A DNA stretch of 63,471 bases, the filler included, from Dugesia japonica (Eukaryota): NCBI GenBank assembly GCA_001938525.1. It is 6 parts of 6 records of this genome, joined end to end, with 100 filler letters (N's around TTAATTAATTAA, not from the genome) between each part and the next. Parts side by side here need not be neighbours in the genome. Positions count along the whole stretch, not along the records: positions 34,051 to 44,777 come from MQRL01646122.1; 5 more parts are not named here. The stretch is one strand, 5' to 3'. Shown piece after piece: positions 13,501-50,358 of the stretch. The notes under the pieces were generated by a model. That model worked only from the letters and a program-made list of their open reading frames with translations. It was not told the DNA's origin and ran no database searches. The position numbers were made by a program, and so were the translations under genes. Numbering within the stretch: the stretch's first letter is position 1; each line of letters opens with the position of its first letter.

Positions 13501-14783
13501 GTTGGCAAGAAAGTAATTGCCGATTTTTTTTAAGTAATAAAAGTCATAAAACAATATGAAACAATATATTTTTATTAAATAATGACTTGTTCATTGTTCT
13601 CAAGGACCTGTTCCCATCTTCCAGGAAGCAAACAAATTCCTCGTTCATAAAATTCCGTGGGTTTATCAGCAAAACATTGCAACAAGTCGGATTTGACATC
13701 GTCATCGTTAGTATAAGTTTTACCATTCAAGACGTTTTAATTAGAACGAAACAAATGGTAATCGAAATTTGCGAGATCAGAGCTGTAAGGTGGATGTGGC
13801 AATACGTCCCAACCAAGGTTCAATAATTTTTGCATAGTGACCAAAATGTGTGTGATTTGGCATTGTCGTGGTGAAAGACTACACCTTGACGGTTCGCCAA
13901 TTTTGGAAGTTTTTCTTGGATTGCCGTGTTCAATTTTGTCAACTGATTAATATAGATTTCAGAATTTATCCTTTGGCTGCCTGACAAAATTTTGAAATAG
14001 ACTATTCTCTGATAATCCCACCATACGTAGAGCATAGCTTTCTTTTGATGCTTATCAACCTTGGCTGACGTCTGCGCTGCTTCTTGTAACGTACACCATG
14101 ATCTTTTCCTATGGACATTGTTGTAGGATATCCATTTTTCATCGTCTGTTACTATTTGTTTCAAAAATGAACATTTGTTGTTGCGTTTCCTAAGCAAATC
14201 ACACATGTCAATACGTTGTTTGAGGTGAATTTCTTTAAGTTGATAAGGAACCCATAAATCGAGTTTTTTAAAGTATTCAATATGCTTGGTACGGCTTTTG
14301 ATGGTGCTATGGGATACGTTGAGCTTACGTTCAATGTCACGCGTTGTACTATGTCGATCCTCGTTAATTAAACTTTTTATTTCATCATCATTCACACCTA
14401 GTAGACGCCCAGCACGTTGCTCATCTTGGAGTGAAAAATCACCGCTGCGGAATTTTTCGAACCAATTCCAACATTGGCGTTCTTTTAAGGCATCTTCACC
14501 ATATACTTGACATATTTTGTTGCATGCCTGTGAAGCATTTCTTCCGTTCTTATAGTAAAATAACAAAATCTGTCGCAAATGCGTTTTCCGATCCTCCATA
14601 CTAAAGCTGATTAATAAAAGAATATATAAAGCAATTTATAAAATTAGCTTACTGATTCAAATTTGAATCCATAGATTATCTATTATTATTATATAAACAC
14701 TGATTACTTTATTTTTAATGAAGTTAAATTGAATTAAAAATGTCTTTATGTAAAATCGGCAATTACTTTCTTGACAACCCAAT
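13501..14783 (-). mobile_element. Near full-length mariner transposon (mellifera subfamily), frameshifted transposase 14599..13575
   Basis: TIRs gttggcaagaaagtaattgccgatttt (13501-13527) and aaaatcggcaattactttcttgacaacccaata (14752-14783); WVPYQL, TDDEKW, HHDNA, then shifted frame LGWDVLPHPPYSSDLANFDYHLF (DD34D). Confidence 0.93.
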
Positions 14784-26470: not shown

Positions 26471-26870
26471 AATGTAGCAGAAGTTGGTATCTACAAATTG
26501 GAGGATCTGGAGAAGGCCAGAGAGCANNTGTTATTTCCGGTCAAACGAATTCAAATTTTATTTAATATTGTGTATGTTGCTGGAGGGGCATTTACGTCAG
26601 AGGGCAGACCGAATTATGAATTATTATTATCACCAGATCATTTTTAACAAGCAACAGCAAATGTAATGAAAAAAACGTTTTCGGACAAGAAATGGCAGGA
26701 TTATTGGGAATAATCTTCATACTGCAAATAATCAAAGTATTACTGACTCAATTATTAGCGTGTTTCGATTTATACAAAAAGGAAAGGAAAATGTCTTGGA
26801 CAATGATTATGGGATTATTCCCAGCGTGGGCTAAATTAGTAGTACTAAATAGTCATTCAAATGAATTGCA
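26471..26870 (+). pseudogene. env: Chuvirus-like glycoprotein (env) C-terminal ectodomain and TM region
   Basis: Manual translation NVAEVGIYKLEDLEKARExxLFPVKRIQILFNIV...FGQEMAGLLGIIFILQIIKVLL...SWTMIMGLFPAWAKLVVL parallels the chuvirus G pattern LAxSGIYxxxDxxxLRxxIMFP...FGxxxAGxxGIxxIxRxxK...W. Confidence 0.7.
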
Positions 26871-29800
26871 TAATACAAGGAGCTTATTGCGATATCTGAG
26901 TCAAGTGGGGGGAAGCGACAGGCAGATAGTTGAACAAATTCGTGCAATATGTGATGACATGAGAAAGCTAAAGGGAAGGAAGACATCTTATTTTGATGTA
27001 TTTAAACCATGGAAACGACAAGATAGTAGTAGTGATGATAGCGATGATGATTCTTATGGCAAACGACAAAGACGACGTGTGGTACCGAGTTACGGATCTA
27101 GAAAGCACCAGAAAGTATTCCAAGTGAATTATCAGAATCAACGATCAGATGAGAATATCGCGAAAGATAATATTTATGAGCAAGAGGGTAGAAGTGAAAT
27201 TGATTGCTATGGTTACCCACAAATGGGAGTACAAAAGTGTGAGAATAACAAACAATCTAGTAAATATCAAAGTGACGACGAAAGACAATCTAGAAAAGGA
27301 GAGAAATTAAACGGATATCGGAGTGAAGAGGAACGACAGTACAGATCCGGGAATAGGAAAGTACGGAGGAACGGCAAAGCATGGAAACAGGTATGACAAT
27401 CAAGTTGTGGAGCAGGGAATCGAGAATTAATTTACTACCCAAATGATGAATTGCAACGAATACGCAGACAACACAACTAAATTTTGCGGAATAACGGATA
27501 ACGAAATTATTGGAACCGCGCCACCCGAGGATACAAATTTTAGTATAATATCGGATAGTGAAGAGATAAAAGACAAGGATACCCGAAGCCTTGCGCCAAT
27601 GACAATGCCAGGTGGTAGAGTGATACTAAAAAAGTTGATAATTAACGGTAGAAAAATAGATTGTATGATCGATACCGGAGCGTGGAGATCAATAATCGAT
27701 GAACGAGTGTTTTATGAGGTAGATAAAGCTAGGATGCGTAAAGAAGGACTCCAAATGCTAACGGTAACCGGACAAGCCGTAAATACAGGGGGGAAGTGGA
27801 TTGTAGAATGCAATGTGAAAATGTGCAATTTATGCATCCTATGCAAGTAATGCAGAATTTAGTTTTTGATTGTATTATGGGGTTGGATATGATAGGAAGA
27901 CTATTTCCTGGAGGAAAATTGGATCTGAATTTGTGTCAACAACCAAATGGAAGTAAATTAACAAGGACTCAGACAAAATGTGTACATTGCGATAAACGAG
28001 GTCATCTATCAAGCCAATGTTGGAAAGTTGGAAATAACCCAACCTGGTGTATAAATTGTCAACGACCAAACCATACAACTAAAGAGTGTAGCAGAAAAGG
28101 CAAACATTGTGTAACTTGTGGTAAAAAGGGGCATTCCAAAATTGTATGTGAGAAATTGAATCGATGTTATGTGTGTGGTTTAATGGGGCATTTATCAAGA
28201 GATTGTTGGAGACGAGTTGAACTCAAACCAGAAATTGGAAATACAGTTAAAATTTCTCGAACAAAGAGGAAGGATTATGTGTGTTATAACTATTTGGAGG
28301 CTGGGAATCGAATACTAATAGATCTAAAAATTGATGGGAGGATATTATCAGCGTTGTTCGATACCGGAGCCACAATATCAGTATTAAATTATAATCTAAT
28401 ATCACCGACCAAGTGGGTATATATTACACAGAATAAATCAGAAATATTTTTAGCGGATGGATGGCAACGAGAAGTGTATGGCAAATTGCGATGTGAAGTT
28501 GAATATCAGGGAAGAACAGTATCGCATGAAATGACAGTAATGAACATGAGTGAGGATTGTATATTGGGAACGGATTTAATTCCCGTATTGATGAGAAATG
28601 TAGTTCTGGATATGACAACATTGAAAATATAAAATTCTAGGGAGAATTTATATGTGGAAGATAACGAAGTATATACAAACAAAAGGTTGGTGATACCAAG
28701 GAGAAGTCAAGTATTTTGTATTGCAAAAACGAGAGCAAACTGTAAAGAGGATATGATTTTTGAACCGCACGAAGGGTTCTCGAAGCGATATAAATTGCCA
28801 GCAGCGAGAGAAATAGTAAACGTGTCTGACGAAGGAAAAGTGCCAGTCAACGTACTGAATATGATAGAAGAAGATATTACTATTTATCCAAATTCCAAAA
28901 TCGGAGTATTAACCCCACTGGAAGACGAAGAGGCGGAAATGAATAATGTGTTAAATAATGATTATGAGAAATTAAAAGGAGATTGGTGAAGCGAATGTAA
29001 ATCGAGTTACCAACAAACGCAGAAGAAGTAGATCGGACGTTTAAAGTGGAATCAACCATTCTATCAGCAGCAGAAAAGGCTAAATTATTACAACTATTGG
29101 ATGAATTCAGAGATATTTTTGCGTGGACAGACAATGAATTAGGTGCGTGCGCGGTGACCAAGCACTCAATAGTGGGTAAAAAGGATGGTTCGATAAGAAT
29201 GTGCGTGGATTACAGATAAGTGAATTTGATGACAGAAAAAGTCTCTTTTCCAATGCTAGACATTCAGTTCTTATTAGATGGTTTATCTGGCTCAAAATTA
29301 TTTTCATCGATTGATCTCNGTCAAGCTTATTATCAAGTAGAGTTAAGTGAAAAGTCAAGGGATTTCTCAGCTTTTAGTACAAAGGAAGGTCAATTCAGAT
29401 TTAACCGAATGTCTTTTGGATTAGCTACAATACCTTCACTTTTCAAAAGTTAATTCACGAGTTATTGTATATCTGGACGATATTCTGGTGTACTGAAAAA
29501 CTTTGAAGGATCACGAAAAAATGTTAGAGACAGTCTTTTACAGGATCAGAAATTCCGTATTAAGAATAATCCCGGAGAAATGTAAGTTTTATCAGAAAGA
29601 AGTGTTATTCTTGGGACATACAGTTAGTGCAACTGGTATACATACTAATGAAGTTAAGATTCAGGAGAATAAGAATGCTATAGTTCCAGAATGTTCTTCA
29701 AAACTCAATTCGTTTCTCGGACTCACAAACTGCTACAAGTTTCCATAAAATATTATGCAAAGATAGCAGCTCCTGTATATGAAGCAACTTCAGGTTGCAA

Positions 29801-30270
29801 CAAACCGTTAGTTTGGACAGAAGCATACCAGAACAGTTTCAAAGCATTATGTAGTGCTCCAGTATTAGAATATCTTAGGAAAGATATGATGTTCATTTTA
29901 GAAACTGAAGCTAGTTTTGGGGCTATCAGTGCAGTCCTTAATCAATTCAAAGAGGAAAAGGAAGTGGTAATTGCATATAGATCCAGACATTTGACTGCTC
30001 ATGAAAAAGGATATTGTGACAAGGAAAGAACTATTAGCTATACACGTAGTTGCACAACAATTCTGATAATATATGTAAGGAAAGAGATTTCTAGTAAAAG
30101 CAGATCACAAAGCGATGGTATTTCTAAACAACACAAAGAAACAAATCATTCCATAAATTTCAGATGTGGATGGTGAATTTGAGAGAGTATGATTTTGGCG
30201 AAGAACACAACAATGTCAATGGGTTGTCGAGGCTAAAGGAAAGTTTATGTTCACAATGTAGTATGAAAGG
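26692..30270 (+). mobile_element. pol: Degenerate Gypsy-type polyprotein: TM/linker, aspartic protease 1, four CCHC knuckles, aspartic protease 2, RT, RNase H
   Basis: MIDTGA (~27665), CVHCDKRGHLSSQC/CINCQRPNHTTKEC/CVTCGKKGHSKIVC/CYVCGLMGHLSRDC, LFDTGA (~28355)...ILGTD, KKDGSIRMCVDY, YLDDILV, ETEASFGAISAVL, NGLSR; several frameshifts. Confidence 0.88.
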
Positions 30271-33950: not shown

Positions 33951-34084
33951 NNNNNNNNNNNNNNNNNNNNNNNNNNNNNNNNNNNNNNNNNNNNTTAATT
34001 AATTAANNNNNNNNNNNNNNNNNNNNNNNNNNNNNNNNNNNNNNNNNNNNTGTGCCAGTACGCTACTATCTATCTACTGATAGC

Positions 34085-34495
34085 AAGGCTGATCTTTGCA
34101 AATCCTTTATGTGAAGAGCGTTAGGGAAAGAAAAGTCAACAAACAACCTCATGCAAAAATAAGTTCTCTACAAGTAAAGATTAAAAACGTAATGATGTCC
34201 AGGAATAAAGAAGGTCTTATTAAAGCGTGCTCAAGATTTCGAGGCCAAGTTGAATCTATCATTGCAGTAAGTGGAGACATTTTTGAAAAATCTAAAAGAA
34301 AATAACTGCCTTCGTATATTTATAGGCAATAATTTATATTAAATGAATTCTATAAAACGATCAATGGTTAAGTCCAACAATTATTCTCGTAATAATTGCA
34401 ATTGTAAAACAATAATTTATATGTTTTGAATAGGTAACAATTCTGCACTGTCTTGTTTCATTTATTAAAATTTCACCAATTTATCGCGCCCACCC
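34085..34495 (+). mobile_element. Tc1/mariner-superfamily (maT/DD37D-like) transposase C-terminus and right end
   Basis: VNKQPHAKISSL...IKACSRFRGQVESIIAVSGDIFE; terminal ccaatttatcgcgcccaccc. Confidence 0.7.
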
Positions 34496-34541
34496 ATCAT
34501 ATATAAGTAATGGGTAAAAGACGAATATAATTCAAGGGGGT

Positions 34542-34915
34542 ATGCTAGGTGTCTTATGTTGAATGTCCGATCTAAAATGTAAATGTAAAATTTAAATGTC
34601 CGATCTAAAATGTAAATGTAAAATTTAAATGTCCAATCTAAAATGTAAATGTAAAATTTAAATGTCCGATCTAAAATGTAAATGTAAAATTTAAATGTCC
34701 GATCTAAATGGAAATGTAAAATTTAAATATCCGATCTAAATGTAAATATAAAATTTAAATGTCCCACCTAAAATGCTAGGTGTTTTATGTTGAATGTCCG
34801 ACCTAAAATGAAAAATTTAAATGTCCAATCTAAAATGAAAATGTAGAATTTAAATGTCCTACCTAAAATGTTTTACCTAAAATGTCCTACCTAAAATGTC
34901 CGACCTAAAATGTTA
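34542..34915. repeat. 33-bp tandem array upstream of PolB (Polinton subterminal repeat)
   Basis: Unit gtccgatctaaaatgtaaatgtaaaatttaaat repeated about 6 times, decaying into shorter cctaaaatg units. Confidence 0.9.
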
Positions 34916-35039
34916 GATGTAAAATAGACTACTCTTAAATTTTACATTCGACATTTAAGAGAAATAATAAAAAATATAATGTAAAATAAAAAATCGACCT
35001 ACTTTTAGTATGTCTATGATTAAATTAATTCTTTAGAAA

Positions 35040-38000
35040 ATGAATAGCTTAATAATAATATGTGAAAACTGTAGAAAGGTGTTTAAAAATCTGGCGGGTA
35101 AAACGGGACACGTTAGATCTAGAATTTGTTATAGAAGTGAAATAACATTTCGATGTGAAAGATGTAATCGAAGATTTAGAAATGAATATGGTTTACAAGA
35201 AAATTTAAATTCAACACGTTGTGGTAACTTAAATAATGTACCATTAAAATGTGAGATTTGTAATAAAACATTTACAAGACAAAATCTTGCCAGAGCACAT
35301 TTCAATTCTGAAAAACATAAACAAATGGTTAATAGAGCTTTATTTGAAGAATTACCAGGTGAAGAAGCAATTGATTATGATCCAGAAATTAGAGATCTTT
35401 TAAGACAATACAAAGATTATGAAATTGAATATTTTAAAGAAAGTAAAGTTTCAATGAGAAAAAATGTTAGTCAATTATACACAAATCCAATTAGAGATAT
35501 TAACATGTTTCAAAATGAAGTTAAAGGAATTATTACTAAATATTTTAAATATGGAAAAAAGATTATAATAAGTATAGAAGTAAAATGTAGATATACAAAA
35601 GAAATAAATAATGAAAATAATGAAAGAGATTTTATTTCTTATTCAAACAATAAAAGATTTACAATTCTAACTAAAATTGAAAATCGTGTTAATGAAATAT
35701 TTAATGAACTACAAAAATATATTGAAGATGAAGATCGTGAAGGCTCAGAATGGTCAATGTCACATATTGTAGATTACAAAATAGATTTAAGTAAATACCA
35801 ATTATTAATTGGTGCAACATATTGCAAATTACCATTTCAAAAACCAGGTGTAATCAACATAAAAAATAAAGATGATAAATGTTATCTTTATTCAATCTTA
35901 GCACATAAATATATAGTTGATAATCCAACACGTGTAGAAAAATATATTCCATATTTAACAGAATTAAAATATAATGGTTTTAAATTTCCTATGAATATTG
36001 ATGATATAAAAAACTTTGAGAAATTAAATACTTTAGAAATAAATGTGTTTGGTGTAAATGCTAATAAAAAACTTGAACCATTACATGTTTCACATCACAC
36101 AATAAATCCACAACCCGAAGAAAATAAATGTAATTTGTTAGTGTATAATGAGCATTTTATTTTATGTAGAGATCTAACTGTATTTTTTACATCACCAAAT
36201 AGAAACACAAATTATCCATGCATACGATGTATGAATTGTTATTACAGTGAAGAATTATTAATTAAACATCAAGAATGTTGTATTAGACCTAAAGCAAATA
36301 ACATCGTATTTCAACATGCCGATTATTATTATTTTTATAAACATTATCAGAAAAACAAAATTCCATTTATACTTCTTGGAGATTTCGAAGCTTACACAAA
36401 TTCAGATAAAAAACAAAAAGCATTATCATTAGGTGTTTATCTCAAAAGTGATTATCAAGATTTATTTCTAAGTTATTATTATGAATTTTCAGGAGAAAAT
36501 ATTTATGATGACTTTTTTTAATTTTTAGAAGAAGTTAATGAAGAATTAGAAGATATTAAAGAAAACAAATTAATAAAAGAAGTTATTGGTGAAGTTCCAG
36601 ATTTTACACCGAACACAAAATGTAGATATTGTGAAAATAAAATATGTGGAACTCCAGTTGAAGATCATAACCATTTCACAGGAGAAATTCGAGGGTGGTC
36701 ATGTAATCATTATAATGTAAATAATAAAAGTATTAAAAATTTATTTATACCATTTTATTTTCATAATGCATCAGGTTATGATAATCATTTATTTTTTAGA
36801 GAGTTATTAACAAACTTTCCATCGAAAATAAAAAGAATAATTCCACATACATCAGACAATTACATTTCATTTCAATATGAAAATATTAAATTTTTAGATT
36901 CAGCAAGATTACTTCCAAACACACCAATAGAATCAATGGGGAAATTATTAACACAATCTAATTATTATCCAATTTTAAATTCATTTAATTTAAGACCAAA
37001 GAAAGCAAGTTTTCCATATAAATATGTAAAAGGTAACAGTATAACAGAAGTTGAACAATTATTAAAATCTAACAGAATTCCAATAAAAGAAGATTTCTTT
37101 AATACATTAAATCAAAAAGAAATATCAGATGAAGATTATCAAATATTTCTAAATGACTTATGTGGAGCATATGAAAACATGTGGGAATACATGATGCATT
37201 ACATGAAACTTGATATTTTAATCCTTGCAGATTTCTTAGAAAACTTTCGTGATTCAATATTATATTGTTTAAGCAATATTATTAAATTAGATCTATGTTA
37301 TTCATATTCAGCACCAGGATATACATGGGAAACTGGAATGTTAAATGCTAATGTAAAATTAAAATATGCGAAAGCCGAAACTTATGATATTTTCTTAAAG
37401 ATTGAAGAAGGAATTAGAGGTGGATATTCTGGTGTGTTAGGTGAAAGACAAGTGTTTAGTCATGAAAATTCACAAGAAAATTTCAATGAGAACATCTCCA
37501 TGGTTTAAAAAACATGTTCACAAATTAATAGCTTTAAGAAAAGAAGCTAAAAGAAACAATAATGTTTTTGGAGATTACATTTATAAATTAATGTTAAATG
37601 CATTCTATGGAAAAACTTTAGAAAATATCAGAAATAGATGTAAGATAGAAATTGTAGATAATGACAAAGATTATCAAAAGTTCGCATCTAAAATAAATTT
37701 TAAATCAAGTAAAATCTTCACGACAAATGATAACAATGAAGCTAATGTTGCAGCAATGCATATGGTAAAAGGAAAATTAAAATATAACAAATTTCCATAT
37801 ATAGGTTTCACAATTCTTCAACATGCAAAACAAGTAATGTATAATTTTATATATGAAAAAATGCAACCTTTAATTGGACAAGATAATTATAAAATTCATT
37901 ACAGTGACACGGACTGTATCTTTACAGAAATAAATGGTAGAGATAACTTAACAAAGTTAGAAAGTTTATTAGGAAATGATTTATTTCAGATGAAAGATAA

Positions 38001-38385
38001 AATGCCTAATTCTGAAATAATTCAAGGTAATTTTATAAAAGCAAAATCTTATGAGTATAGTTATCAGGATAAAGGACAGATGAAATTTGATTCAAGAAAT
38101 AAAGGTGTAAAGAAAAATAATAAATTTTTGATGAAAGATTTTGATGAAGTATTAAAAAATCCTAAACAAATAATTTATGGAACTAATTTTTCATTAACAT
38201 CTAATTGTCATGAAATTGAAATTGTAGAGCAAAAGAAAATAGCATTAATGGGATATGATGATAAAAGAATCATAGAAGATAATGGTGTTACAACTTGGCC
38301 ACATGGAAATAAATATTATTGTGAAACATGTGAAGATTGGCATTTAAGATTAGACATGATAAATAAAACATTAAATTGTTTATAA
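35040..38385 (+). pseudogene. polB: Protein-primed PolB with N-terminal zinc fingers and endonuclease VII-like insert; one frameshift plus one internal deletion
   Basis: EGSEWS, NIKNKDDKCY, GDFEAY (ExoI), DHNHFTGEIRG, FHNASGYD (ExoII), FLDS, YMKLDIL (ExoIII), IRGGYS, KLMLNAFYGK (motif B), YSDTDC (motif C), DDKR..TWPHG; frameshift in T-run at ~36520. Confidence 0.95.
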
Positions 38386-38389
38386 TAAA

Positions 38390-38910
38390 AATGACGAACG
38401 AAGTGAGCAATCCAACAAGCGGCAGCAAAGCGAGTACAACGAGTGTAACTGAAGAAGAATTAGAAAAGATAGTAAATTCAAAGAAATGTAAATCTGTAAA
38501 GATTGACGGTAAAAATTATTACATTAGTAAAAAAGTAAAGGATGAACTAAAAAAGAAAGAGCGCAAAGGTGGTTTTGCATTTCTAGCTGTGTTCTCGGTG
38601 TGTTTTCCGGAACAGCCGGAATTGCATCTGGAATTGCAAGTACAGTAGCGAGTTCCAAAAAAGCAATTAAACATAAAAAAGAAATTGAGCAAATGGAAGG
38701 CGATGGTATTTATTTGAATCCGTGGTAAGGTTCTGCACTTCATAAATATTTAAAAATATTGATCCTAAATTTAAAGGTGTAACAAAAAAGTTTAAAAAAG
38801 GAATTCGTATACGTCACAAAAGAAATGGAATATATTTAGCTCCATATCAAAGAGGAAATGGAATAAATGAAAGTGAAGAAGATGAAACAGACGAAGATGA
38901 TGAATATTAA
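38390..38910 (+). pseudogene. pX-like core/membrane-active precursor protein
   Basis: With frameshifts: ERKGGFAFLA..LGVFSGTAGIASGIASTVASSKK...MEGDGIYLNPW...NGIYLAPYQRGNGI. Confidence 0.65.
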
Positions 38911-38936
38911 ATTTCTCATATAAGAAATCGCGAAGC

Positions 38937-39830
38937 ATGAATACAAAACAAGTTAATGAAAGAATTAAAGAATTAACAAGTCAAATTGAAGGTGAAGAAA
39001 AATATAATGATTTTTTCTGTAATAAGATTCTTGAATCAAGAGAATTACAAAATAAATTATCAATGTTACAACAACCAACAATTAGTGCAATTGAAAAAAT
39101 TTCAGAGAAACCAGAAACATTAGAAACGAGAGATTTAACAAAATTCTTTTTAAATGAAAAAGTAATTCCATTTATTCCAGAATACTCAATTGATAATATT
39201 GATGCCACCGGAAGGTTAAGTCAATCAATAATTCCTAAATTTTCTACATTTAATGTTAGTGGTATTAATAAGATAAAAAGTTTTATGGAAATAACTTTAA
39301 AAGAAAATAAAATTTATTTATTTGAAGAAGAAGGAAATAAAAATTTCTTATTCAAATAATAAGTTATACCATACACCGATATAATATTTAGAATAATTTT
39401 AAGAAATCTAGATGAAACAGAAACACCCGAAGATGTTGAGGCTTATTTAAATAAATTTATTAGTCCTATTCCAACAAATAGTGATTACTCTAATATGTTA
39501 AAAAGAAAATTTAGAAGGGTAGATATTACCGAAAAACCTAAAAGAAAAAGGAGAAGATTAGATTAGCCCATATTAGATGAGCTCAAATTAAATAAACCTG
39601 TACCATTAAATGAAACAGAAGGAGACGCTCTCAATCGTTTAAGTTTATTTGAAAAGTTAACATTATTAATTTCAGCAGAAAAATCTGGACACAATAATGT
39701 AGATGAAGAAATTAAAAAGGCATGTAAAAAATTAAAGATGGGTTCAATATCTAATAAGATTTATAAAAAATATAAAAAGAAATTTTTAAAACATAGATTT
39801 TACACAAAGCATTTTACATCTAAAGTTTAT
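38937..39830 (+). pseudogene. Conserved adintovirus/Polinton protein of unknown function
   Basis: ORF to 39359, continuing after a frameshift to LFEKLTLLISAEKSGHNNVDEEI, resembling the LxLLxAxxxAGNN C-terminal motif of this gene class. Confidence 0.55.
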
Positions 39831-39839
39831 TTATAAAAA

Positions 39840-40517
39840 ATGTCACATCAATTCTTAGAAGTTGGAAAAGAACAAGATTTAATATTAGATTTAAAATTTC
39901 CTTTAGAATTAGATTCAGAATATGAACTTGGATTAATTTGTTTTTCATGTTACAATATTATTTTTAACATAACAAATTTAAATAATAAATTTACTGTTGA
40001 CACTAAAGAATATAAAATTGAACCTGGATCAAATGAAGTAAAAGTAATTTCAGATAAATTAAAAAAATATGAAATAGAAATTTTGGCCGATACAGCAACT
40101 GCAAAATGTGAAATGAAAACAAAAAAGATATTAAGTTTTAATAATAAATCTTTCTTCCATACAATTTTAGGTTTCAATGAAAAAACTTATCAACCGGGAG
40201 ATTATTTATCAGAAAATAAAATTGACATTTCAAATATTAACACAATAAATATAACTTGTAATATTGTTAAAAGTAATTATGTAAAATCTGATATAGGTAA
40301 CACTGAACAAATTAATCTTTTATATTCATTTCCAATTAACACAGTTGGTTTAGGATATAAAATTCTTGAAAGACCAACATCAACAATTTATTCTNAAATT
40401 AATACAAACTACATTTCAAGATTAAAATTTAATGTTGTAGATGAACATTTTAAAACAATAGATTTTAACCAAGAGACAGTTACAATTTTAGTCCATTTAC
40501 ATAAATATCGACTTTAA
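39840..40517 (+). CDS. Minor capsid protein (penton, single jelly-roll)
   Basis: PLEL..YELGL..YN.IFNIT..NNKF, PGS.E, ILGF, INITCNIV, YKILERP, IDFNQETVTILVHL; intact 225 aa. Confidence 0.88.
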   Translation: MSHQFLEVGKEQDLILDLKFPLELDSEYELGLICFSCYNIIFNITNLNNKFTVDTKEYKIEPGSNEVKVISDKLKKYEIEILADTATAKCEMKTKKILSFNNKSFFHTILGFNEKTYQPGDYLSENKIDISNINTINITCNIVKSNYVKSDIGNTEQINLLYSFPINTVGLGYKILERPTSTIYSXINTNYISRLKFNVVDEHFKTIDFNQETVTILVHLHKYRL

Positions 40518-40544
40518 GAAATAGCAAAGCTGGCCTACGGACAA

Positions 40545-40979
40545 ATGACATACAATTTAATTGATTTCTTAAAAACATTTGGAATTAATACAACTACAAA
40601 TTTTGATTTATATTCAATTGCAGAATTTTTAAAAATGGATTTAGAAATTTATATGAAAAATGAAATAGGGGTGAATATAAATTTAATTTTTAATTATCAA
40701 AATTCAAATCAAAAAAGAATTCATTGGACATGTTACACTAATCATCAATACTTCGACTCTTTTGGTTTAAAACCTTTAGAACAAATTGAAAAATTTACAA
40801 AGAAATATAATGAAATTCAAGTGCAACATTTTGGTACTAACATTTGTGGTGTCTTATGTATTTATTTTTTATATAAAATCTCACATGTCGAATTTGATGG
40901 AGAAAGTGTATTTAATTTAAATACTTCACAAATGCTAAAATTAAAATGTCAGATGCATATAATGAAAATAAATTTGTAA
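40545..40979 (+). CDS. Adenain-like cysteine maturation protease
   Basis: IHWTCY (His), YFDSFG (Asp), YN..QVQ (Gln), ICGVLCIYFL (Cys). Confidence 0.92.
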   Translation: MTYNLIDFLKTFGINTTTNFDLYSIAEFLKMDLEIYMKNEIGVNINLIFNYQNSNQKRIHWTCYTNHQYFDSFGLKPLEQIEKFTKKYNEIQVQHFGTNICGVLCIYFLYKISHVEFDGESVFNLNTSQMLKLKCQMHIMKINL

Positions 40980-41860
40980 ATAAAACAGGTGACACGATAA
41001 CATGTTTAAAAATAAAAGATGAGCCTAAAGATTTAAATGATGCAGTTAATTTAAAATATGTAAAATTACTTGAAATAAAGATTGATAATATCTTAATTAA
41101 AAACTATAATAAAGAAACATTTGATAAAATAAACTATGATATTAAAAGATTAAAATCAGAACTTTTTCCATATAATAAAAGTGATTTAATAATTCGTTTA
41201 AGCAAATTAAATTATGTTGATGTTAAAAGTATAAATGTTAAACTTAAAAATTTAGATGATGATTTAGATAAGAAAACTTTTGACGAGTATATTGTTCATA
41301 TTGATAAATTAAAAATTTTAAATGAAATAATTAAAGATTTTGAATTAATAAAACCAAAACTACATAAATTTCTTATTGATAGAGTTAATGTTTTATTTAA
41401 AATTTATAAACAAACCACTTCTGATGAAACACTTAATGATTTAAGATTGTTAATTAATAATCCTTTATCATATGTTTTTATCCCTGATAATAAAATAATA
41501 TTTTCAATTTCATGTGAAAAAAATGATTTTCCACAATTTAGTTTTAAATATGTAAAGAATTTTTATTTTAGGGGAAAAGGTAAAATGGAGATTGTATTGG
41601 AAAAATATTATTTTTATCTTGAAGAAGATTTTTTAATTGTTATATATACAAAGATTAATGAAAAAATTTCTATAAATATGAATGGTTATTATGGTGGTGA
41701 CTCTGATTTAAAACTTCAAATGTTTATTAATGGTATTATAAAAAAATTTCTTTGGGAAATGGTGATTTTAAAATTTTTGAAGGTAGTGGTGAAACAAATT
41801 TAAATAATATTACTTTAAATATTGAATAAAAGTTTTATTTCCATAATTTAACTATTAAGA
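40946..41860 (+). CDS. Putative fibre/spike protein
   Basis: VNKTGDTIT and PKDLNDAVNLKYV resemble GDTMTG and PxxxxDAxNKxYV fibre-shaft motifs; helical stalk then a beta-rich domain; ORF ends 41803 after a probable frameshift. Confidence 0.55.
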
Positions 41861-41868
41861 GTTTATTA

Positions 41869-42975
41869 ATGGAAAATATTGAACAATTAAAAAAAGAATT
41901 TGAAATGATAAAATCAAAATTTCACAAAAAACATATTTACACCATTAATGTTTTATTTAAAACTTTAAATGATAAAGGTTTAAGAGAAATGTTTGATAAT
42001 TGCTTATATAAAATTTTCTTGCCGGGTGCTAATTCAATTTTATCAATTATCTGTTATGAACAACATCAAACTCGTCCATATTTTCATATTAATGATCATG
42101 TAAATAATTTTGATTTTAAAAGTAAAGGAAAAATAAAAACTAAGTTAAATATTAATTACGCTTATTTTTATCTTGAAGAACCTTTTGAAATATTTTTACA
42201 CACAACAAACATTAATGAAAAACTTTATATAAATATAGATGGTAATTGTGAAATTGAAAAATTTACATATGTCATTAAAATTAATAAAATTGCAGTATCA
42301 TTTTTATATATTAAACCTAAAGATAATAGTATTAAAATTTATAAAGAAAGCACTGAAATTAATAAAAATACAAATATAAACTATGTTCAAATAATTTTAC
42401 CAAAAGAAATTTGTTTAAAGAGTTTAACTATAAAATTGTATAGATTTAAAATTTATGATGAATTAAAAAAAGAGTTTGAAATAATAAAACCAAAACTCCA
42501 TAAAATTTTTGTTGATAGAATTAATGTTCTATTTAAAACTTTTAATAATACCGGTTCTGATGTAATACTTAAAAATATAAAAGAAATAATTGATAATTAT
42601 TTTCCCCATGTTAATGTGGCTAGTAATGAAATAATATTTTCAATTAATCCTCAACAATTTTCTGTTANNNATAAATATGTTAGTAATTTAGATTTAAAAA
42701 GAAAAGGTAAAATCATAAAAGAAATATTTTTAAATACAAACATTAATAGAAAAATTGGTATAAATATAGAAGGTGATTCTCAAATTCAAATATTTGATTA
42801 TGTCATTAGAATTAATACTATTGCAATATCTTATCAATATATGAAACCTAAAGATGATAATATAAAAATTTATCGAAAAAGCACTGAAATTAGTAAAGAC
42901 GCAAATATAAATTATATTGTAATAGGTTTGCCAGAAGAAATTAATTTAAAAAGTTTAATTATAAATTTTATATAA
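41869..42975 (+). CDS. Protein of two tandem ~185-aa domains paralogous to the C-terminal domain of the preceding ORF
   Basis: LKKEFE.IK.K.HK....INVLFK...KGK...NINxK..INIxG...KPKD..IKIY..STEI.K..NINY..I.LP.EI.LKSL.I occurs twice. Confidence 0.75.
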   Translation: MENIEQLKKEFEMIKSKFHKKHIYTINVLFKTLNDKGLREMFDNCLYKIFLPGANSILSIICYEQHQTRPYFHINDHVNNFDFKSKGKIKTKLNINYAYFYLEEPFEIFLHTTNINEKLYINIDGNCEIEKFTYVIKINKIAVSFLYIKPKDNSIKIYKESTEINKNTNINYVQIILPKEICLKSLTIKLYRFKIYDELKKEFEIIKPKLHKIFVDRINVLFKTFNNTGSDVILKNIKEIIDNYFPHVNVASNEIIFSINPQQFSVXXKYVSNLDLKRKGKIIKEIFLNTNINRKIGINIEGDSQIQIFDYVIRINTIAISYQYMKPKDDNIKIYRKSTEISKDANINYIVIGLPEEINLKSLIINFI

Positions 42976-42978
42976 GAA

Positions 42979-43573
42979 ATGGAGAGTGAAAAGTTATATC
43001 CCGACTTGAATGATTATACAATTATAGATTAAAAAAAAACTTGCGATGTCGAGAATTAGAGATTTTGAAAATGACCTTTACTATATTAAAGATAAAATTA
43101 AACATTATAAAAAAATACATAAAAGATGGGAAAGAATAGATTCGGGTATAAAATATACACAGATAATTGTTAGTGTAGGAATTGGAATAGGAGGAATTAT
43201 ATTAATCACTCCAGTTGGAGTTGCGCCTACAACAATTGGTATACCAATAATTACTGGCGCAATTTCCATGTTACCAGTAATTGGAACATTAAATTCTTCA
43301 TTAATAAATTCGAGAAAAGATAGATATGAAAAGTTAATTAAGAAACTTGAGGCTGTTAAAAATAAATTATTTCTATTTCAAGAGAAAGCTGTCAATGATG
43401 AAATTTTAACTGATGATGAATTAATGATAAGTAAAAATATGGTTAATGAAGTCCACGAACTAATAACGGCAACAAAAAATGCAAGCGCAGCGAAAAAAGA
43501 TGAAAGTTTAAAAATGTTAGTAGAAAATCAGACTAAAGTTATTAATGAAATGAAATCTAAATTAGGGATATAA
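42979..43573 (+). CDS. Two-TM Polinton/adintovirus membrane protein with N-terminal LYPDL (5' end frameshifted)
   Basis: MESEKLYPDL at 42979, then ORF 43046..43573 with a hydrophobic hairpin IIVSVGIGIGGIILITPVGVAPTTIGIPIITGAISMLPVIG and KAVNDEILTDDE. Confidence 0.65.
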
Positions 43574-43635
43574 AATTTGCCTGGTAGCATGCTACCAGCT
43601 TAGGACTAAAATTTTTATTTAAGAAATGGCAAAGC

Positions 43636-44490
43636 ATGAACGAAAGACTTAGAAAAGAAATATGTGAATTGTGTTGTAAACATTGTGCTTATAAAGTTAA
43701 TCTTTTTTTACAAACTTCACCATTAACAAGTAAATGGAATGGATTGAATAATTTAAAACAAGAATTTTGGAATGAAGTTCCTGAAGTTGAAATAAAACCT
43801 AAGGTTAAAAAAGAGAAAAAAGTTCAACGTGTAAATTTTATACAAGAAATCCAAGATGAAGATGTTGAAGTTGAAATAGAAGATATTGAAATGGGAAATA
43901 TTGAATTTTCAGATATTAAATGTGAAATGGAAATAGAAGATATTGATGATGAAAATATTATACAAGATATTGATGATGAAAATATTATACAAGAAATGGA
44001 AGAAGTTAAATGTGAAATTCAATCTGAAAATGTTGAAAATGAAATAGAAGATGAATTTATTAAAGAGTTTATAAAATCACTTAAAAATGAAATAACTCTT
44101 CCTAATTCATTTAATTTAAAAAATGTAATAACAAGTCCAGAAAATTCATTAATTACCATTGAAGAAATTTTAGAAACTATAAATGTAAATATTAAATATT
44201 GGTATAATAATTTTAATATTGGAAAAAGAATTACTTTAATTAGTTATTATCAATTAGGGTACTTTTTTAAATTGATGAAAAAAAAATTTAACAGTAATTT
44301 CGAAATAGAAGAACATTTACATAAAATTGGAATAAAATTAAAAATTAATTATGTAAATAAAATAATTAGATTTCATCGTTTCGCAAGAAATTATTTAGAT
44401 GTTTTAAAATCAGATTGGTCATTCAGAAAAATTGAAAAGAACTTTAATAAAATTAAAATATTCTTTGAAGAAAATAAATATCTAATCTAA
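43636..44490 (+). CDS. Unknown viral protein, acidic centre and basic helical C-terminus
   Basis: Intact 284-aa ORF with an in-frame 27-nt duplication (DIDDENIIQ twice). Confidence 0.6.
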   Translation: MNERLRKEICELCCKHCAYKVNLFLQTSPLTSKWNGLNNLKQEFWNEVPEVEIKPKVKKEKKVQRVNFIQEIQDEDVEVEIEDIEMGNIEFSDIKCEMEIEDIDDENIIQDIDDENIIQEMEEVKCEIQSENVENEIEDEFIKEFIKSLKNEITLPNSFNLKNVITSPENSLITIEEILETINVNIKYWYNNFNIGKRITLISYYQLGYFFKLMKKKFNSNFEIEEHLHKIGIKLKINYVNKIIRFHRFARNYLDVLKSDWSFRKIEKNFNKIKIFFEENKYLI

Positions 44491-44500
44491 CATGCAACAT

Positions 44501-44777
44501 TTAAAATAAATCATCTAACATTTCATCAGTTTCTTTATTCAAGTAAAAATAATTATATTTAGTTTTCCAGTGAAGATTTACTTCATAATCATANNNNNNN
44601 NNNNNNNNNNNNNNNNNNNNNNNNNNNNNNNNNNNNNNNNNATCTCTATCAGTTTTATTTAATTTAAAGAAGATGTAACAATTTGAATTATTTCTGATAG
44701 AGCTTTTATCTAATTGATAATATGTTTGTGAAATATAAATCACATTACAATTTGAATGTCGACCTCTTGTGAAATAA
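44501..44777 (-). CDS. A32/FtsK-like packaging ATPase, C-terminal part
   Basis: YFTRGRHSNCNVIYISQ...IRNNSN (Arg-finger and sensor motifs); N-terminus lies beyond the scaffold end. Confidence 0.85.
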
Positions 44778-44877: not shown

Positions 44878-44950
44878 TTATGTTTGTTTTGAAAGTGTTT
44901 GAAGACTTCACTTTCTTTCTGTTTGAGATGTTCTTTAATTCTTGTACGGA
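44878..44950 (-). pseudogene. GIY-YIG endonuclease fragment (Penelope-like) abutting PolB
   Basis: RTRIKEHLKQKESEVFKHFQNKH. Confidence 0.5.
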
Positions 44951-46780
44951 ATAATATTGCTGAATCTAGAAATCTAATATTTTCATATTGAAATGAAATA
45001 TAAACTTCATGTATGTGAAGAATTATTTCTTTTACTTTATGTGGATATTTTACTAATAATTCTTTGAAAAATAAATGATTATCATATCCAGAGGAATTGT
45101 GAAAATAAAATGGAATAAATAATTTTTTTACAGATTTATGTTGCAAATTACAAATTTTATGAGCATATCCTTTGAATTCATCATTAAAAGGATCATGGTC
45201 TAATACTAGAGAATTCCTTTCGGTTAAGTATATATTTTTGTTACAATATCTTCATTTTTGTTTGTGATTAGCACTTGTTGGTGGTACATTACATGAAAAC
45301 TCTATAATTAATTAATTTTTTTTTATTATTTAGTTGATTTAAAAACTCAAAGAATTGTTGAATGAATGAATGATTTATCCATGAAATTCTTTATATTTAT
45401 TTTGAATTAAATGTGAACATTTACTCACTACATAAATTCCAAGAGATAATGGTTTTTGTTTCATTTTGTTGGTGTCTGTACAACTTTCAAAATCACCATA
45501 AACTACAAAAGCCATTTTATTTTGGTAATAATAATTTTCAAATGTATAGTATTTATGTTTTGGAAATACAGCATTACTAATTTCATGATTGATACATTCC
45601 TTTTGGTGTTTTTTTAATAAATTTTTACTATGATTCAAATTCATACACCTGATATATAAATAATTTTTATTTCTGTTTGTTGAAAACATTATTACTTACA
45701 CATTTCTTCATTTGATATAATGATTTTTATCAATCAATAAATTATTTTTATTTTCCTCTGGTTTAGGTTTAGTTTTATAATGAGAAATATATACAGGTTT
45801 CAATTTTTTTAGAGTCAGTAAATACAATTATTTGCCAATTTTTCAATTTTTTTAACGTCATCAATATTTACAGGAAATTTAAATCTATTTGTTTGAAATT
45901 CATTTAAATTAGTAATATAATTTGAAACTCAAATTGGATGATCAAGTCTATATTTTTGAGCGAATAACGAACAGTGAAAACATTTTTCATCTTTTTTTGA
46001 ACATTAATACCACATGGTTTTGAAAATGGTAATTTTTGATAAGATGAATTCCCACCAGCTGAAGATTGATATTTAGTCAATTAAATTTTAAAATCAACAA
46101 TGTCATTTAAATTCCAACCAGATTCATTTCTCTCATCACTTCAATATAACTTTGTAATTCATTTATAATATCATTTATCCATTCATTAATTTCGCTTTTT
46201 ATAATAAATTGTTCATTCTTGGAATATGAATTGAAAATTCTTTCAACTTATTCAATAATTACGTTTTTATCATAATTACAATTTACACTTGTTCGAACAT
46301 TAATCATTTTACCATAATAAAAATACTTTTTGACTATTTCAGTGATTTTAGTTTAAAATTCATTAATCATTTTGTCTTAATCATTTGTTTTTGTAGTTTT
46401 TAAACTTTTTTAGTTAATTATATTTTTTTAACTTTTTATAAATCTTGAATATTTTACGAGTTTCTGGATGATATTCAATGACTTCTTCTCCAGGAAGTTG
46501 ATCAAATAATAATTTGTTAACCATTTCTTTATGTGTCTTTGAATACAAAAGTATGGTTTTGATACAAAACATTTTATTACAGATTATCCGTTTTAAATGT
46601 ATTTTATGTGGATTTCCACAAATTGTAGCATTTAAATGTTCTTGAATATAACTTAAGAATTAAATGATTCATAGGACATCTAACTCTTCTTCTAGTTAGA
46701 ATACAGCATAGAGATCTAACATGAAATGTTAAACCTGCTTTATTTTTAAAAATCTATTTATTTTCACTAGTCATTTTAAG
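44950..46780 (-). pseudogene. polB: Decayed N-terminal half of PolB, same family as 35040..38385
   Basis: KLPFSKP, VYGDFES, HDPFNDEFKGYAHKICN, FIPFYFHNSSGYDNHLFF, FLDSA; collinear with the + strand copy. Confidence 0.88.
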
Positions 46781-46889
46781 TATAGATAATTTAGTCGGAA
46801 TGATTTCACCTATTCTAAAGAGGGTTGTTTATATTTTTAATTATTGTTTATGTTTGGTCTATATTTAGTCTATGTCCAGTTTATGTTGG

Positions 46890-47441
46890 ATCTATGTTTT
46901 AGGTTTGAAATTTAATGCTTTACTTAATTCACTATCTACTTCATTATCAATACATCCACCACTTTCATTAACACATTTTTTTGATTTTTTATTTATTGAT
47001 TTATTTGTATTTGGAATACTTGAAATGGTTTTTGATTTTATTAATGTAAAATTATTTCTTTTATAGGTTAAACTTTCTTTTTGTGGAATTTTTAGAATTT
47101 CAAAAGAATTTGTTTTAACATTAAAAATATAATCACCATAATAATTTTTATTTTATTGTTAAGACTTTTCATCAAAAGAATATTTTACTCGAAGAAATCG
47201 TTTTCTCTCAGTTTTCAAATTTAATTCTCTTAAATTGTTATTTAATGTTCGAATACTTATGCCCATTTCCTTGGCAATATTAGAATCTTTGAAATTTGGA
47301 TCTTTCAAAACAAGCTATTGATACTTAGCTGCTAAACAAATCTTTTGAGATTTATTTAACAACCTTGAATCAAAGTTATTTAAACAATTAATATAATCAA
47401 CTACATTTTCACACAAATCTTTTTTTGCTTTCTTTAGTCAT
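46890..47441 (-). pseudogene. HTH-containing viral ORF remnant
   Basis: Manual translation DPNFKDSNIAKEMGISIRTLNNNLRELN. Confidence 0.5.
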
Positions 47442-48158
47442 TTTTCTTAAGTAATAAAATAAGAAACTATGTAAAGAACTATGTTTAAATATGGAATAAT
47501 AATAATAATTATACAAAATATAATTGTGAAATATATAATTAAATTTATTTCATGTTCAAATTTTTTATTTAAATTATCAATATATTTTATAAAACCATTT
47601 ATTTCTTTTGTTTATTTCTATAATCATTTACTTTAATATTCTTTAATAATTAATTTGATTCATTTAAACAATGATGTATATAATTTACAATTGTTTTGAT
47701 AATTTCATGATAATCCAATGACTTCAGTTCCAGAATCACAACTTTTTCATTGGCAAAAAGATTGACACACAGTGGCTTGTATTTGGTGACTTTTAATGCA
47801 CGCAAAAATTTCGGTTCGAACCAACAACCCAATACACTGCTCAATTTTATATAAATTCACTCCCCGTCCAAGATCACATGTTACAGTAATTGATTGAATA
47901 CCATTTATTTGGGTATTGAGATTTTTGCAAGTGATTTGTTTATCCATGATCGCTTTTGCATCCCATTATTCGACATTTTCCCGATTCAAAAACAATTACT
48001 GAATAATCTTTCATTTTAATTACATATTGCATGGGTTTCTTACAGGTATTAAATTGAAGGTCCAAAAGTAAATCAATTAGATGAGCTCTGTAATTAATAT
48101 TTGATAAGATTGTTTAGTGACGAATGAGCAAAAAAATAATTTCTATGGTTTCTGTAAA

Positions 48159-48732
48159 ATGTTACTACAAAACAACGCGGGTTTTCAATAGTCGGTCCTA
48201 GTGGAAGCGGCAAAACATTATTTGTTCGCAAATTACTACAAAGCAAATTGTTTCGAATAAAGTTCAAAAATATTTATTGGCATCAAGGTGGTGGAGGTGA
48301 AGCCGGCTTGACTAATGGTTAATTTTCCTAGTTGAGAAAGAATACGATGATTGATGGATTCGATGATGATTGGTTAAAGAGATTAAATACTGGGAGTGTT
48401 ATTGTAATTGAGGCAATAAGGAGGCTGATTTTAATAATCTGTTTACAATAACTGCTTATCATGGTAATGTAACTGTCGTCTTCATTACGTACACGTAATC
48501 TAAATTTCCATTATTTGGTTTTATTGCAAAATCAGATCAAACTGTGATTGACTATATTTCTCGTCAAGAATTTCCTCAACATATCGAATTTTTATCAGAT
48601 ACATTTTGAAATGTTATTACAAAATCACGTAAGTATTTATTTATTGATTTTACACAACAATATACTGATGATGAACTAGTACAAACCCATATATTCAATT
48701 TGGAAGAAATAACAGTTTACAAACAAAATTAA
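48159..48732 (+). pseudogene. Polinton packaging ATPase (second element class)
   Basis: Walker A IVGPSGSGKT at ~48188-48217, VIVIE Walker B remnant, HGNVTVVFIT, YLFIDF; many stops. Confidence 0.8.
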
Positions 48733-48754
48733 TACCTAATAAAAGAAACAAGAA

Positions 48755-49224
48755 ATGAATCGATATAAAAAAGTTGTCATAAAACAAACATGTGGTAGGG
48801 CTGATAATTTGAGACGATTTCCCGAAGTATTCCATACTTTAAGGCAATTTTAATGGCTCCCTCAAATTCTCGATGGCAAATTATGCAATCTATGTTGGCA
48901 TTTGTAATGAATGATTTCATTAATGTTTTGAAACAAATTATTTTCAGCCAAGTCGATGTAGGTCACAAAACTGGAAAATATCGATGGAAAAAGTATCAAG
49001 AAGCTCTTGTAGATATGGCAAATGCAATAAATTTGGAAGCAAAGAAATTAATATTAGAAAGACAGTTTCCTATACAACATGAAAAAAAAACAAAAGCAAA
49101 AAAATGTTTATTATAGACAAAATGAAGATGGATTTTTTTGGCTGCCCTTTTACCAATTCTACGTTTTTTGGGAAAGGTGGCTGCAACTGGTGCAATTAGG
49201 GCTGCTACAAAGAAAATTATTTAA
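48755..49224 (+). pseudogene. PW/pX-like small Polinton protein(s)
   Basis: Ends ...DGFFLAALLPILRFLGKVAATGAI. Confidence 0.5.
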
Positions 49225-49334
49225 TCTGTATAAATAATTTAGATTCTTTTTGATATTGCAATAAAAATGGGTGTTGCCCATAATATTCCAGACATTTTAC
49301 TAAATATTCGTTGTTGTATTTTCGTGATCAAGTT

Positions 49335-50358
49335 GATGGAACAACTATGGTAAAACCCAAAAAATCCAGTTGTATACGCCGGTATTTCAAAGTTTGCAAA
49401 TGCTGCAAACGATTCGGTGAAAGAGACGAAGAAATGGTTAGGTAATCAGTTGGCGTATAGTTTGAATGGACCAATGAGAAAACAGGTTTTAAGACGGAAA
49501 TATATTGTTGCTGGTGTTAATAGACTATGGCGAATGAACTTGATGGAAATGATTCCATATGTAAGCATAAATTATGATTATCGATATATTTTGACATGTA
49601 TTGATGTATTTAGTCGATTTGTGAGTGTGAATCCAGTAAAACGGAAATCTGGTATAAATATGTTGTTGGCGTTGACGGTAATGTTTAAAGATGTTCATCC
49701 AAAAGCTACTTAAACCGATTTGGGTAAAGAGTTTTACAATACCCAGGTCAAATCATTACTAAAACAATATTGTATAATGCACTATTCAATATTTTCTCAG
49801 TACAAGGCCGCTCTAGTTGAGCGATTTAATCGAAAACTACGCACACGATTAAGTAAGTTCTTCACCAAACAAGGTTTTAAAAAATGGATACATGTTTTTT
49901 CCAAAAATGATTTATGCATACAACCATTCTAAGCTTAGAAGTATTGGAGGACAAACCCCTGAAGATGTAAAAGATGATGATAATGATTATACACATTATT
50001 TCATCAATAAAAAACCAAAACCAAAATATAAAATTGGACAACAAATACGGATTTCTCGAATAAGTACTACGCCATTCATCAAAAACTTTGATAATTATTG
50101 GAGTGATGAAGTCTTTCAAATCTTGGAAACCAACACGAGACAAACCCCAGTCATATTTATAATACGTGATGAAGATGGTAATATTATTCAAGGGACATTT
50201 TATGAGCAGGAATTGCAAATCTTACCGGAAAAAACAAGTATATACCAAATCAAATCAATTCTCAAACTAAAGGTCAAGGTTAATATAAACAATATCTAGT
50301 TGAATGGCATGAATATTCAAAGCCTACGAGGATTCAAGCATCTCAAATTCAATAATAA
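49335..50358 (+). pseudogene. int: Polinton retroviral-like integrase with chromodomain
   Basis: YRYILTCIDVFSRF, TDLGKEFYN, KAALVERFNR, YNHS..RSIG..P, KYKIGQQIRIS, WSDEVF, GTFYEQELQ, YLVEW. Confidence 0.92.

What the first reader, a model, noticed from the sequence alone, without database searches (positions are those of the whole stretch)
34506..44777. Largely intact endogenous adintovirus-like Polinton with most of a virion morphogenesis module
Seen: tightly packed ZnF-PolB, pX-like, conserved unknown, penton, adenain with all catalytic residues, fibre-like genes, a 2-TM protein, an unknown ORF and a convergent packaging ATPase; few disablements. Hexon and integrase are absent, but the scaffold ends inside the ATPase. 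Two further decayed copies in other scaffolds indicate a multi-copy family. Inference: a relatively recently active dsDNA virus lineage of this host, probably unnamed.
Basis: partly seen in the sequence, partly recalled or inferred. Interest (0 to 1): 0.7.

Follow-up and report, generated by a model that had tools for sequence, protein, structure and literature searches.

The report
Broken copy of abundant Polinton provirus
This is one recently broken copy of a very abundant Polinton (Maverick), a known kind of virus-like DNA element that sits in animal genomes, so it is ordinary apart from a variable repeat gene of unknown job.

Summary
The gene cluster is real. The penton is confirmed by fold (mavirus penton, Z 11.0). 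Protease, packaging ATPase and the 2-TM gene (a SLATT homologue) match complete Polinton-like viruses in IMG/VR that also carry a double-jelly-roll capsid gene and, in one case, an integrase and terminal repeats. But the copy is not 'largely intact' in function. PolB has a stop codon and lacks about 130-150 codons, including polymerase motif A, which 59 of 65 full-length relatives carry there. The pX-like, conserved-unknown and first fibre-like genes are also broken. Four in-frame stops suggest only about 0.6% decay, so the copy is young but dead. About 58,000 contig pieces from each of two DNA runs lie on it, so the family has hundreds of diverged genomic copies or more. One RNA run shows almost no transcription. 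The host is probably a planarian (recalled 18S likeness, untested). There, Polintons with capsid, penton, ATPase and protease are already catalogued, so it may be a known repeat family. Hexon and integrase probably lie past the scaffold end. Verdict: new or already catalogued member of a known kind; low interest.

The parts
34506..35039 (.). Putative left end: an AG-starting motif one base off the usual (AGT)2 end, then a 33-bp and 14-bp tandem array. Terminus not confirmed.
   Evidence: Sequence, repeats, end motifs of Mavericks. The array is an exact, single-copy-depth match in two DNA runs and is far less covered than the genes, so it is not a family-wide terminal repeat at 85% likeness.
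35040..38385 (+). [quoted passage not shown] Broken: stop at 36519; motif A region missing and frame change near 37458.
   Evidence: Pfam; 65 of 65 full-length relatives have 95-194 residues (median 137) at the junction, 59 of 65 with motif A; Cys281 and His372 kept in 64 of 65, exonuclease motifs kept.
38391..38910 (+). pX-like small core protein gene, in three frames
   Evidence: Frames. Only a 9-residue match to the pX-type gene of locus L017 (pairwise E 0.003); no profile or Pfam hit. The label rests mostly on motifs read by eye.
38937..39836 (+). Conserved Polinton protein of unknown function, 3 in-frame stops
   Evidence: Read through with X. Weak profile match of the C-terminus to the homologue in L005-type viruses (E 0.04).
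39840..40517 (+). [quoted passage not shown]
   Evidence: Model pLDDT 74.8; mavirus penton Z 11.0, rmsd 2.5, 117 aligned; PBCV-1 and Sputnik chains next; viral minor capsid proteins E 1e-11; sequence hits in 10 of 24 loci.
40545..40979 (+). Adenain-type cysteine protease, open frame, catalytic motifs present
   Evidence: Sequence; hits in 7 of 24 loci; profile E 8e-16; the L017 homologue hits Peptidase_C5 at E 3e-4, just under the cut-off.
40946..42975 (+). Two ORFs holding three copies of an about 185-residue repeat domain, the first with a fibre-like N-terminal motif; frame change near 41750; poorly shared across the family
   Evidence: Repeats 42-51% identical; no fold (pLDDT 39.7); no Pfam or PHROG family at E 0.001, no Atlas hit over 0.80; depth 1,000-8,500 against 7,000-65,000 on core genes, and joints that skip or repeat whole units.
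43046..43573 (+). SLATT-like two-transmembrane protein, open frame
   Evidence: Atlas 0.87-0.89 to SLATT clusters; NCBIfam SLATT_4 E 0.007 and SLATT_1 E 0.011, both under cut-off; homologues in L005 and L017 (E 2e-7, 1e-5); hydropathy.
43636..44490 (+). Unknown acidic ORF, open frame; optional, absent from some copies
   Evidence: No homologue among 2642 candidates; depth 192-1,559 and a joint 43555 to 44502 in 2 contigs of X2 and 1 of X4.
44501..44777 (-). C-terminal part of an A32/FtsK-type packaging ATPase, cut by the scaffold end
   Evidence: Hits in 10 of 24 loci; profile E 1e-10; the L005 homologue hits Pox_A32.

Best explanation
An integrated, defective copy of a high-copy Polinton/Maverick family of the endonuclease-VII-PolB type (probably 'Alpha' adintovirus class, now Eupolintoviridae) in an AT-rich animal genome, probably a planarian. 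How the family works (inferred from known Polintons): an excised linear copy is replicated by its protein-primed PolB, whose vOTU domain releases the terminal protein; an rve integrase inserts it; hexon, penton, ATPase and protease can build and mature a particle; fibre-like and SLATT genes are variable accessory genes, perhaps for attachment and membrane effects. Shown for this copy: it cannot replicate by itself, since its polymerase lacks motif A and has a stop, and it is nearly silent in the one raw RNA run examined. Hexon, integrase and the right end most likely lie beyond the scaffold end (inferred).
For: Gene identities. The same gene set (PolB, protease, penton, ATPase, SLATT, pX-type, conserved unknown, fibre-type) occurs in IMG/VR loci L005 and L017 together with a double-jelly-roll capsid gene (PF21738); L005 also has an rve-chromo integrase and long inverted repeats. 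Lesions. Genomic and multi-copy: 57,638 and 58,064 contig pieces laid in two DNA runs of different studies, 9% and 8% at 99% or more identity and 46% at 90-95%; exact single-copy pieces at depth 7-18 in both runs. Youth. Flatworm Polintons are known to be numerous (748 integrase-linked pPolB loci in 8 of 73 genomes) and are piRNA targets in a planarian.
Against: Hexon, integrase, second terminal repeat and target-site duplication were not seen; no genome was held. Host identity is recalled, not tested. The Alpha label is indirect. The pX and conserved-unknown labels are weak statistically. The missing motif A stretch was not checked against reads: no listed contig spans that junction, so an assembly error is not excluded. 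RNA evidence is one raw run, a quarter read.
Confidence: 0.82

Rival explanations
1. It is simply a copy of an already catalogued planarian repeat (Polinton-1_SM, Polinton-2_SM or the two shorter entries). This is a sharper form of the best explanation and removes all novelty.
For: Two entries of 14,867 and 15,944 bp have capsid, penton, ATPase and protease. The 10.3 kb held here plus the missing genes would give about that size (inference; L005 spans about 15.4 kb between its end motifs). A family this abundant is unlikely to have been missed by repeat libraries.
Against: No sequence comparison was possible; the host species is not established; the window holds several distinct Polinton subfamilies.
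Confidence: 0.5
2. The family has lost the capsid gene and spreads only as a self-synthesising transposon.
For: No capsid gene in 10.3 kb. Very high copy number fits spread inside the genome. One listed planarian entry has no capsid mark.
Against: Penton, protease and SLATT frames are open and lie in the best-covered parts. In the survey read, elements without capsid tended to lose protease and ATPase too. Relatives with this gene set carry a capsid gene. The scaffold ends inside the module.
Confidence: 0.12
3. The DNA comes from a free, replicating virus or a contaminant co-assembled with the host.
For: Very high depth; dense coding; no host gene on the scaffold.
Against: Many nonsense and frameshift lesions. 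The fibre-region frame change lies in exact-match contigs at single-copy depth in two runs ten years apart. Copies are spread over 85-100% identity, not clonal. A very common repeat lies just upstream (34333-34409).
Confidence: 0.04

Closest known systems
Alpha-class adintoviruses (Eupolintoviridae, formerly Adintoviridae), especially the Hydra and Stylophora maps with SLATT (PMC8502044; rename in PMC12451622)
   Same: PolB with OTU-type Cys/His and a PF03175 match, adenain, penton, FtsK-type ATPase, pX-type gene, fibre, SLATT accessory gene. Insect Mavericks close to bidnavirus PolB also show the endonuclease VII domain.
   Different: PolB at most 30% (N-part) and 48% (best local C-part match) identical to anything found, on a long branch. 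Hexon and integrase not seen. A tandem 185-residue repeat and an acidic ORF have no match.
Polinton-like viruses in IMG/VR loci L005 and L017
   Same: Homologous PolB, penton, protease, ATPase and SLATT; similar pX-type, conserved unknown and fibre-type genes.
   Different: Different gene order (ATPase, penton, pX, SLATT, unknown, capsid, PolB, protease, fibres on one strand), open frames, under 30% PolB identity; fibre C-termini unrelated.
Repbase Polintons of Schmidtea mediterranea (Polinton-1_SM, Polinton-2_SM, Polinton1_SM, Polinton2_SM; Table S1 of PMC4028283)
   Same: Probably the same host group; penton and ATPase in all four, protease in two; expected size fits.
   Different: Unknown: their sequences could not be compared.

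Membership tests
Polinton/Maverick | [quoted passage not shown] | tested here: met
   PF03175 above cut-off on the C-terminal piece; 3156 relatives; the gene is broken.
Polinton/Maverick | Retrovirus-like (rve) integrase | tested here: inconclusive
   A profile finds none in this scaffold but finds one in the next scaffold's other module; the scaffold is truncated.
Polinton/Maverick | A32/FtsK packaging ATPase | tested here: met
   C-terminal part, profile E 1e-10; the Walker A part lies beyond the scaffold.
Polinton/Maverick | Adenain-type cysteine protease | tested here: met
   Profile E 8e-16; catalytic motifs in the sequence.
Polinton/Maverick | Single jelly-roll penton | tested here: met
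Polinton/Maverick | [quoted passage not shown] | tested here: inconclusive
   A 5-sequence profile finds none in the window; the scaffold ends inside the module.
Polinton/Maverick | Terminal inverted repeats with AG-type ends and 6-bp target-site duplication | not testable with these tools
   Only one end can be in the scaffold; no long inverted repeat inside it; no genome held.
Eupolintoviridae (Adintoviridae) | PolB with N-terminal OTU-like domain | tested here: inconclusive
   A Cys and a His upstream of the exonuclease are kept in 64 of 65 relatives, as described for vOTU; no fold was run, and a profile search of solved structures gave no OTU.
Eupolintoviridae (Adintoviridae) | Animal host | tested here: inconclusive
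   Eukaryotic 18S fragment at 57540-57957; planarian likeness is recalled; the window is a set of separate scaffolds.
Alpha-class adintovirus | PF03175-type PolB clustering with the Alpha exemplars | tested here: inconclusive
   PF03175 and endonuclease VII matches as in Spodoptera Mavericks; Spodoptera maps stand in the Alpha panel (equating the two is my inference). No named exemplar was available for the tree.
Repbase Polinton-x_SM | High nucleotide identity to the family sequence | not testable with these tools
   Repbase is not held; supplement searches for short peptides found no planarian rows.

The most novel reading that the evidence does not exclude
An undescribed, planarian-specific eupolintovirus lineage that expanded to hundreds of copies, still has members able to form particles, and carries a new tandem repeat domain behind a fibre-like start whose number and sequence vary between copies, as a receptor-binding module under diversifying pressure would.
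Probability: 0.12. Interest if true: 0.6.

Novelty: new member of a known kind. Interest (0 to 1): 0.25.

Why it matters
Little on its own: degraded Polintons are common in animal genomes (96% of vertebrate loci are defective) and flatworm Polintons are already counted and catalogued. It would matter more if close copies proved complete and particle-forming, because particles of integrated animal Polintons have rarely been seen and planarians are a tractable host in which Polintons are under piRNA control. The unmatched repeat domain is the only part without a known counterpart.

Tried and rejected
No genome was held, so the locus could not be extended. Names for the nearest proteins could not be looked up. 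No listed holder of the stretch is on record as RNA; this blank is no evidence. The repeat domain gave a model too poor to search and no Atlas hit above 0.80. Pfam, PHROGs, NCBIfam and solved-structure sequence searches did not name the penton, protease, fibre-like ORFs or the acidic ORF. Penton and protease scans of viral contigs returned no loci; the penton scan of metagenomes gave 4 short contigs. A by-eye likeness of the acidic ORF to an L005 ORF was not supported; nor was a pairwise match of the conserved unknown to an L004 ORF. The PolB tree is the quick tree only, 46 rows chosen by identity from 144, all but one unnamed; it shows a long branch and places nothing taxonomically. I considered that the capsid-like piece and integrase of the next scaffold belong to this element and rejected it: their ATPase and protease are of another lineage, and none of this element's morphogenesis genes matches there. 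Three look-ups in earlier findings returned nothing. Paper searches 'adintovirus' + 'flatworm' gave 0; planarian genus names gave 0 in the adintovirus paper's supplement, which was cut when stored; 0 in two further papers or supplements.
Full report
Setting. The window is six small scaffolds joined by N spacers; the finding fills the fourth, 34051-44777, at 23% G+C. The other scaffolds hold Gypsy and mariner remnants, more Polinton pieces and an 18S rRNA fragment. No whole genome was held.

What is there. From 35040 to 44777, 97% of bases lie in the genes listed. PolB shows C2H2 fingers, an endonuclease VII-like insert and PF03175. The penton model (pLDDT 74.8, 4-sequence alignment) matches the mavirus penton best (Z 11.0, rmsd 2.5, 117 aligned; 4 of 48,161 chains reached Z 8) and viral minor capsid proteins. 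A PolB scan of IMG/VR gave 20 loci. Against the 24 loci held, the penton hit 10, the ATPase piece 10, the protease 7 and the 2-TM protein 2; the pX pieces, conserved unknown, fibre-like ORFs and acidic ORF hit 0. Profiles from those loci found the protease (E 8e-16), the ATPase (E 1e-10, positions 148-191 of 249), SLATT (E 0.005) and, weakly, the conserved unknown (E 0.04); they found no capsid gene anywhere in the window and no integrase in this scaffold. The 2-TM protein is SLATT-like by the Atlas (0.87-0.89, a lead) and NCBIfam (under cut-off); SLATT is already drawn on adintovirus maps from Hydra and Stylophora.

How intact it is. PolB has an in-frame stop at 36519. Between its second and third pieces there is no room for the palm's first part: all 65 full-length relatives have 95-194 residues there (median 137), 59 of 65 with motif A, and no such motif lies in frame in this scaffold. 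The decayed relative in the last scaffold keeps about 470 bases at that place. Exonuclease motifs and a Cys/His pair that fits the vOTU domain are kept (vOTU as described in passages of PMC11071308). The pX-like gene is in three frames (label mostly by eye), the conserved unknown has 3 stops, and the first fibre-like ORF changes frame near 41750. Penton, protease, SLATT, the second repeat ORF and the acidic ORF are open. Four in-frame stops in 8,604 coding bases, with 6.5-7.6% of single changes giving a stop, imply 0.6-0.7% change since selection ended (95% range 0.2-1.8%). So the copy is young but cannot replicate itself.

Copy number and expression. Twelve of 24 listed runs hold part of the stretch, none half of its words. 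I laid 4 of the 24 at 85% likeness. The two DNA runs, from different studies and years, gave 57,638 and 58,064 pieces with nearly the same profile; 9% and 8% were 99% or more alike and 46% were 90-95% alike. Exact pieces of this copy had depth 7-18, including ones across the fibre-region frame change, so the locus and that break are real. Summed depth is not a copy number, but at one penton position 30 contigs average about 990, roughly 100 times the single-copy depth, so hundreds of copies or more is a fair inference. Core genes are covered 7,000-65,000 deep; the repeat ORFs 1,000-8,500 and the acidic ORF 192-1,559, and a joint from 43555 to 44502 shows copies without the acidic ORF. Joints that skip or repeat whole units suggest the repeat number varies, though misplacement between repeats can mimic this. 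In the raw RNA run (a quarter read) 1,974 of 13.6 million reads lay on the stretch, 99% ran on into unlike sequence, and depth per strand over the genes was 2.4 or less except 9 on the low-complexity acidic stretch. The fourth run (RNA by guess, contigs) roughly follows the DNA profile and may hold DNA.

Mechanism. Shown: gene content, lesions, genomic multi-copy state, near silence in one run. Inferred from known Polintons (PMC8502044 parts 1-4 of 6; PMC4028283 part 1 of 4): protein-primed replication of an excised linear copy, integration by an rve integrase, and optional packaging into a double-jelly-roll particle by the ATPase with maturation by the protease. Loci L005 and L017 show what a whole member looks like: the same gene set plus a capsid gene (PF21738), and in L005 an rve-chromo integrase and long inverted repeats around about 15.4 kb. 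L017 showed no integrase hit in the stretch held. I therefore expect hexon, integrase and right end beyond the scaffold. The putative left end at 34506 is one base off the usual motif (passages of PMC8097293) and is unconfirmed.

Host and prior description. The 18S fragment is eukaryotic; its likeness to dugesiid planarians is recalled and comes from no call. The low G+C and a large Gypsy with a membrane segment, protease and dUTPase-like part before RT (read by eye; compare section 7 of PMC6431247) fit but do not prove it. If so, the kind is well recorded: four S. mediterranea Polintons, two with capsid, penton, ATPase and protease (whole Table S1 of PMC4028283); 748 integrase-linked pPolB loci in 8 of 73 flatworm genomes (supplement of PMC10748475, one summary row and 30 of 748 rows seen; whether they are this PolB type is not shown); Maverick expansion in Dugesia (passages); Polintons as piRNA targets (passages of PMC8532177). 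I found no paper holding both 'adintovirus' and 'flatworm' and no planarian name in the adintovirus paper's supplement, which was cut when stored and may hide such rows. So it may be unnamed as a virus yet catalogued as a repeat. Protein searches found no close relative: PolB N-part 24-35%, C-part 29-48%, penton 34-41%, acidic ORF none. The family Adintoviridae is now Eupolintoviridae (passages). Alpha class is likely but indirect (passages of PMC5803895).

Against my reading. Capsid gene, integrase and termini were not seen; the motif A loss was not checked in reads; the host is a guess; two gene labels are weak; names of the nearest proteins could not be obtained.

Verdict. Real, correctly recognised in kind, overstated in intactness, and of a well-known class. 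The repeat domain with no match is the only open point. Interest 0.25.

Noticed in passing
window 44949-53060: A decayed PolB of the finding's type on the minus strand lies back to back with a second, different Polinton module on the plus strand: ATPase start (48161), integrase (49417-50287, profile E 1e-33), protease (52222-52551, E 3e-7) and a possible capsid-gene start (51815-52117, recalled motif only; no Pfam or profile hit). Either a nested insertion or a natural polymerase/virion-module swap.
   Followed up: partly
window 61250-63151: Decayed C-half of a related PolB (+) followed directly by a SLATT-like piece on the minus strand: a different gene order from the finding.
   Followed up: partly
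window 57540-57957: A 3' fragment of 18S rRNA (Rfam 288 bits) lies between tandem arrays of 28-134 bp and 31 bp, outside any rDNA unit seen.
   Followed up: partly
window 7800-9077: Short, repeated C-terminal pieces of a family B polymerase of yet another Polinton-like type on the minus strand, between N gaps (label by eye).
   Followed up: no
window 26620-30176: Large decayed Gypsy element with a membrane segment, two protease-like motifs, several zinc knuckles, a dUTPase-like stretch and RT, resembling the description of planarian Burro elements (by eye).
   Followed up: no
window 13820-14599: Mariner transposase ORF of 259 aa inside or beside a Gypsy remnant (Pfam HTH_48 and Transposase_1).
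   Followed up: partly
window 34333-34409: A very common short repeat (bin depth about 500,000 in DNA runs, also in RNA reads) just upstream of the element.
   Followed up: no
L005 543-15927; L017 1-16535: Apparently complete Polinton-like viruses in IMG/VR with open frames, capsid gene and SLATT; L005 has an integrase and long inverted repeats, L017 showed no integrase hit in the stretch held.
   Followed up: partly
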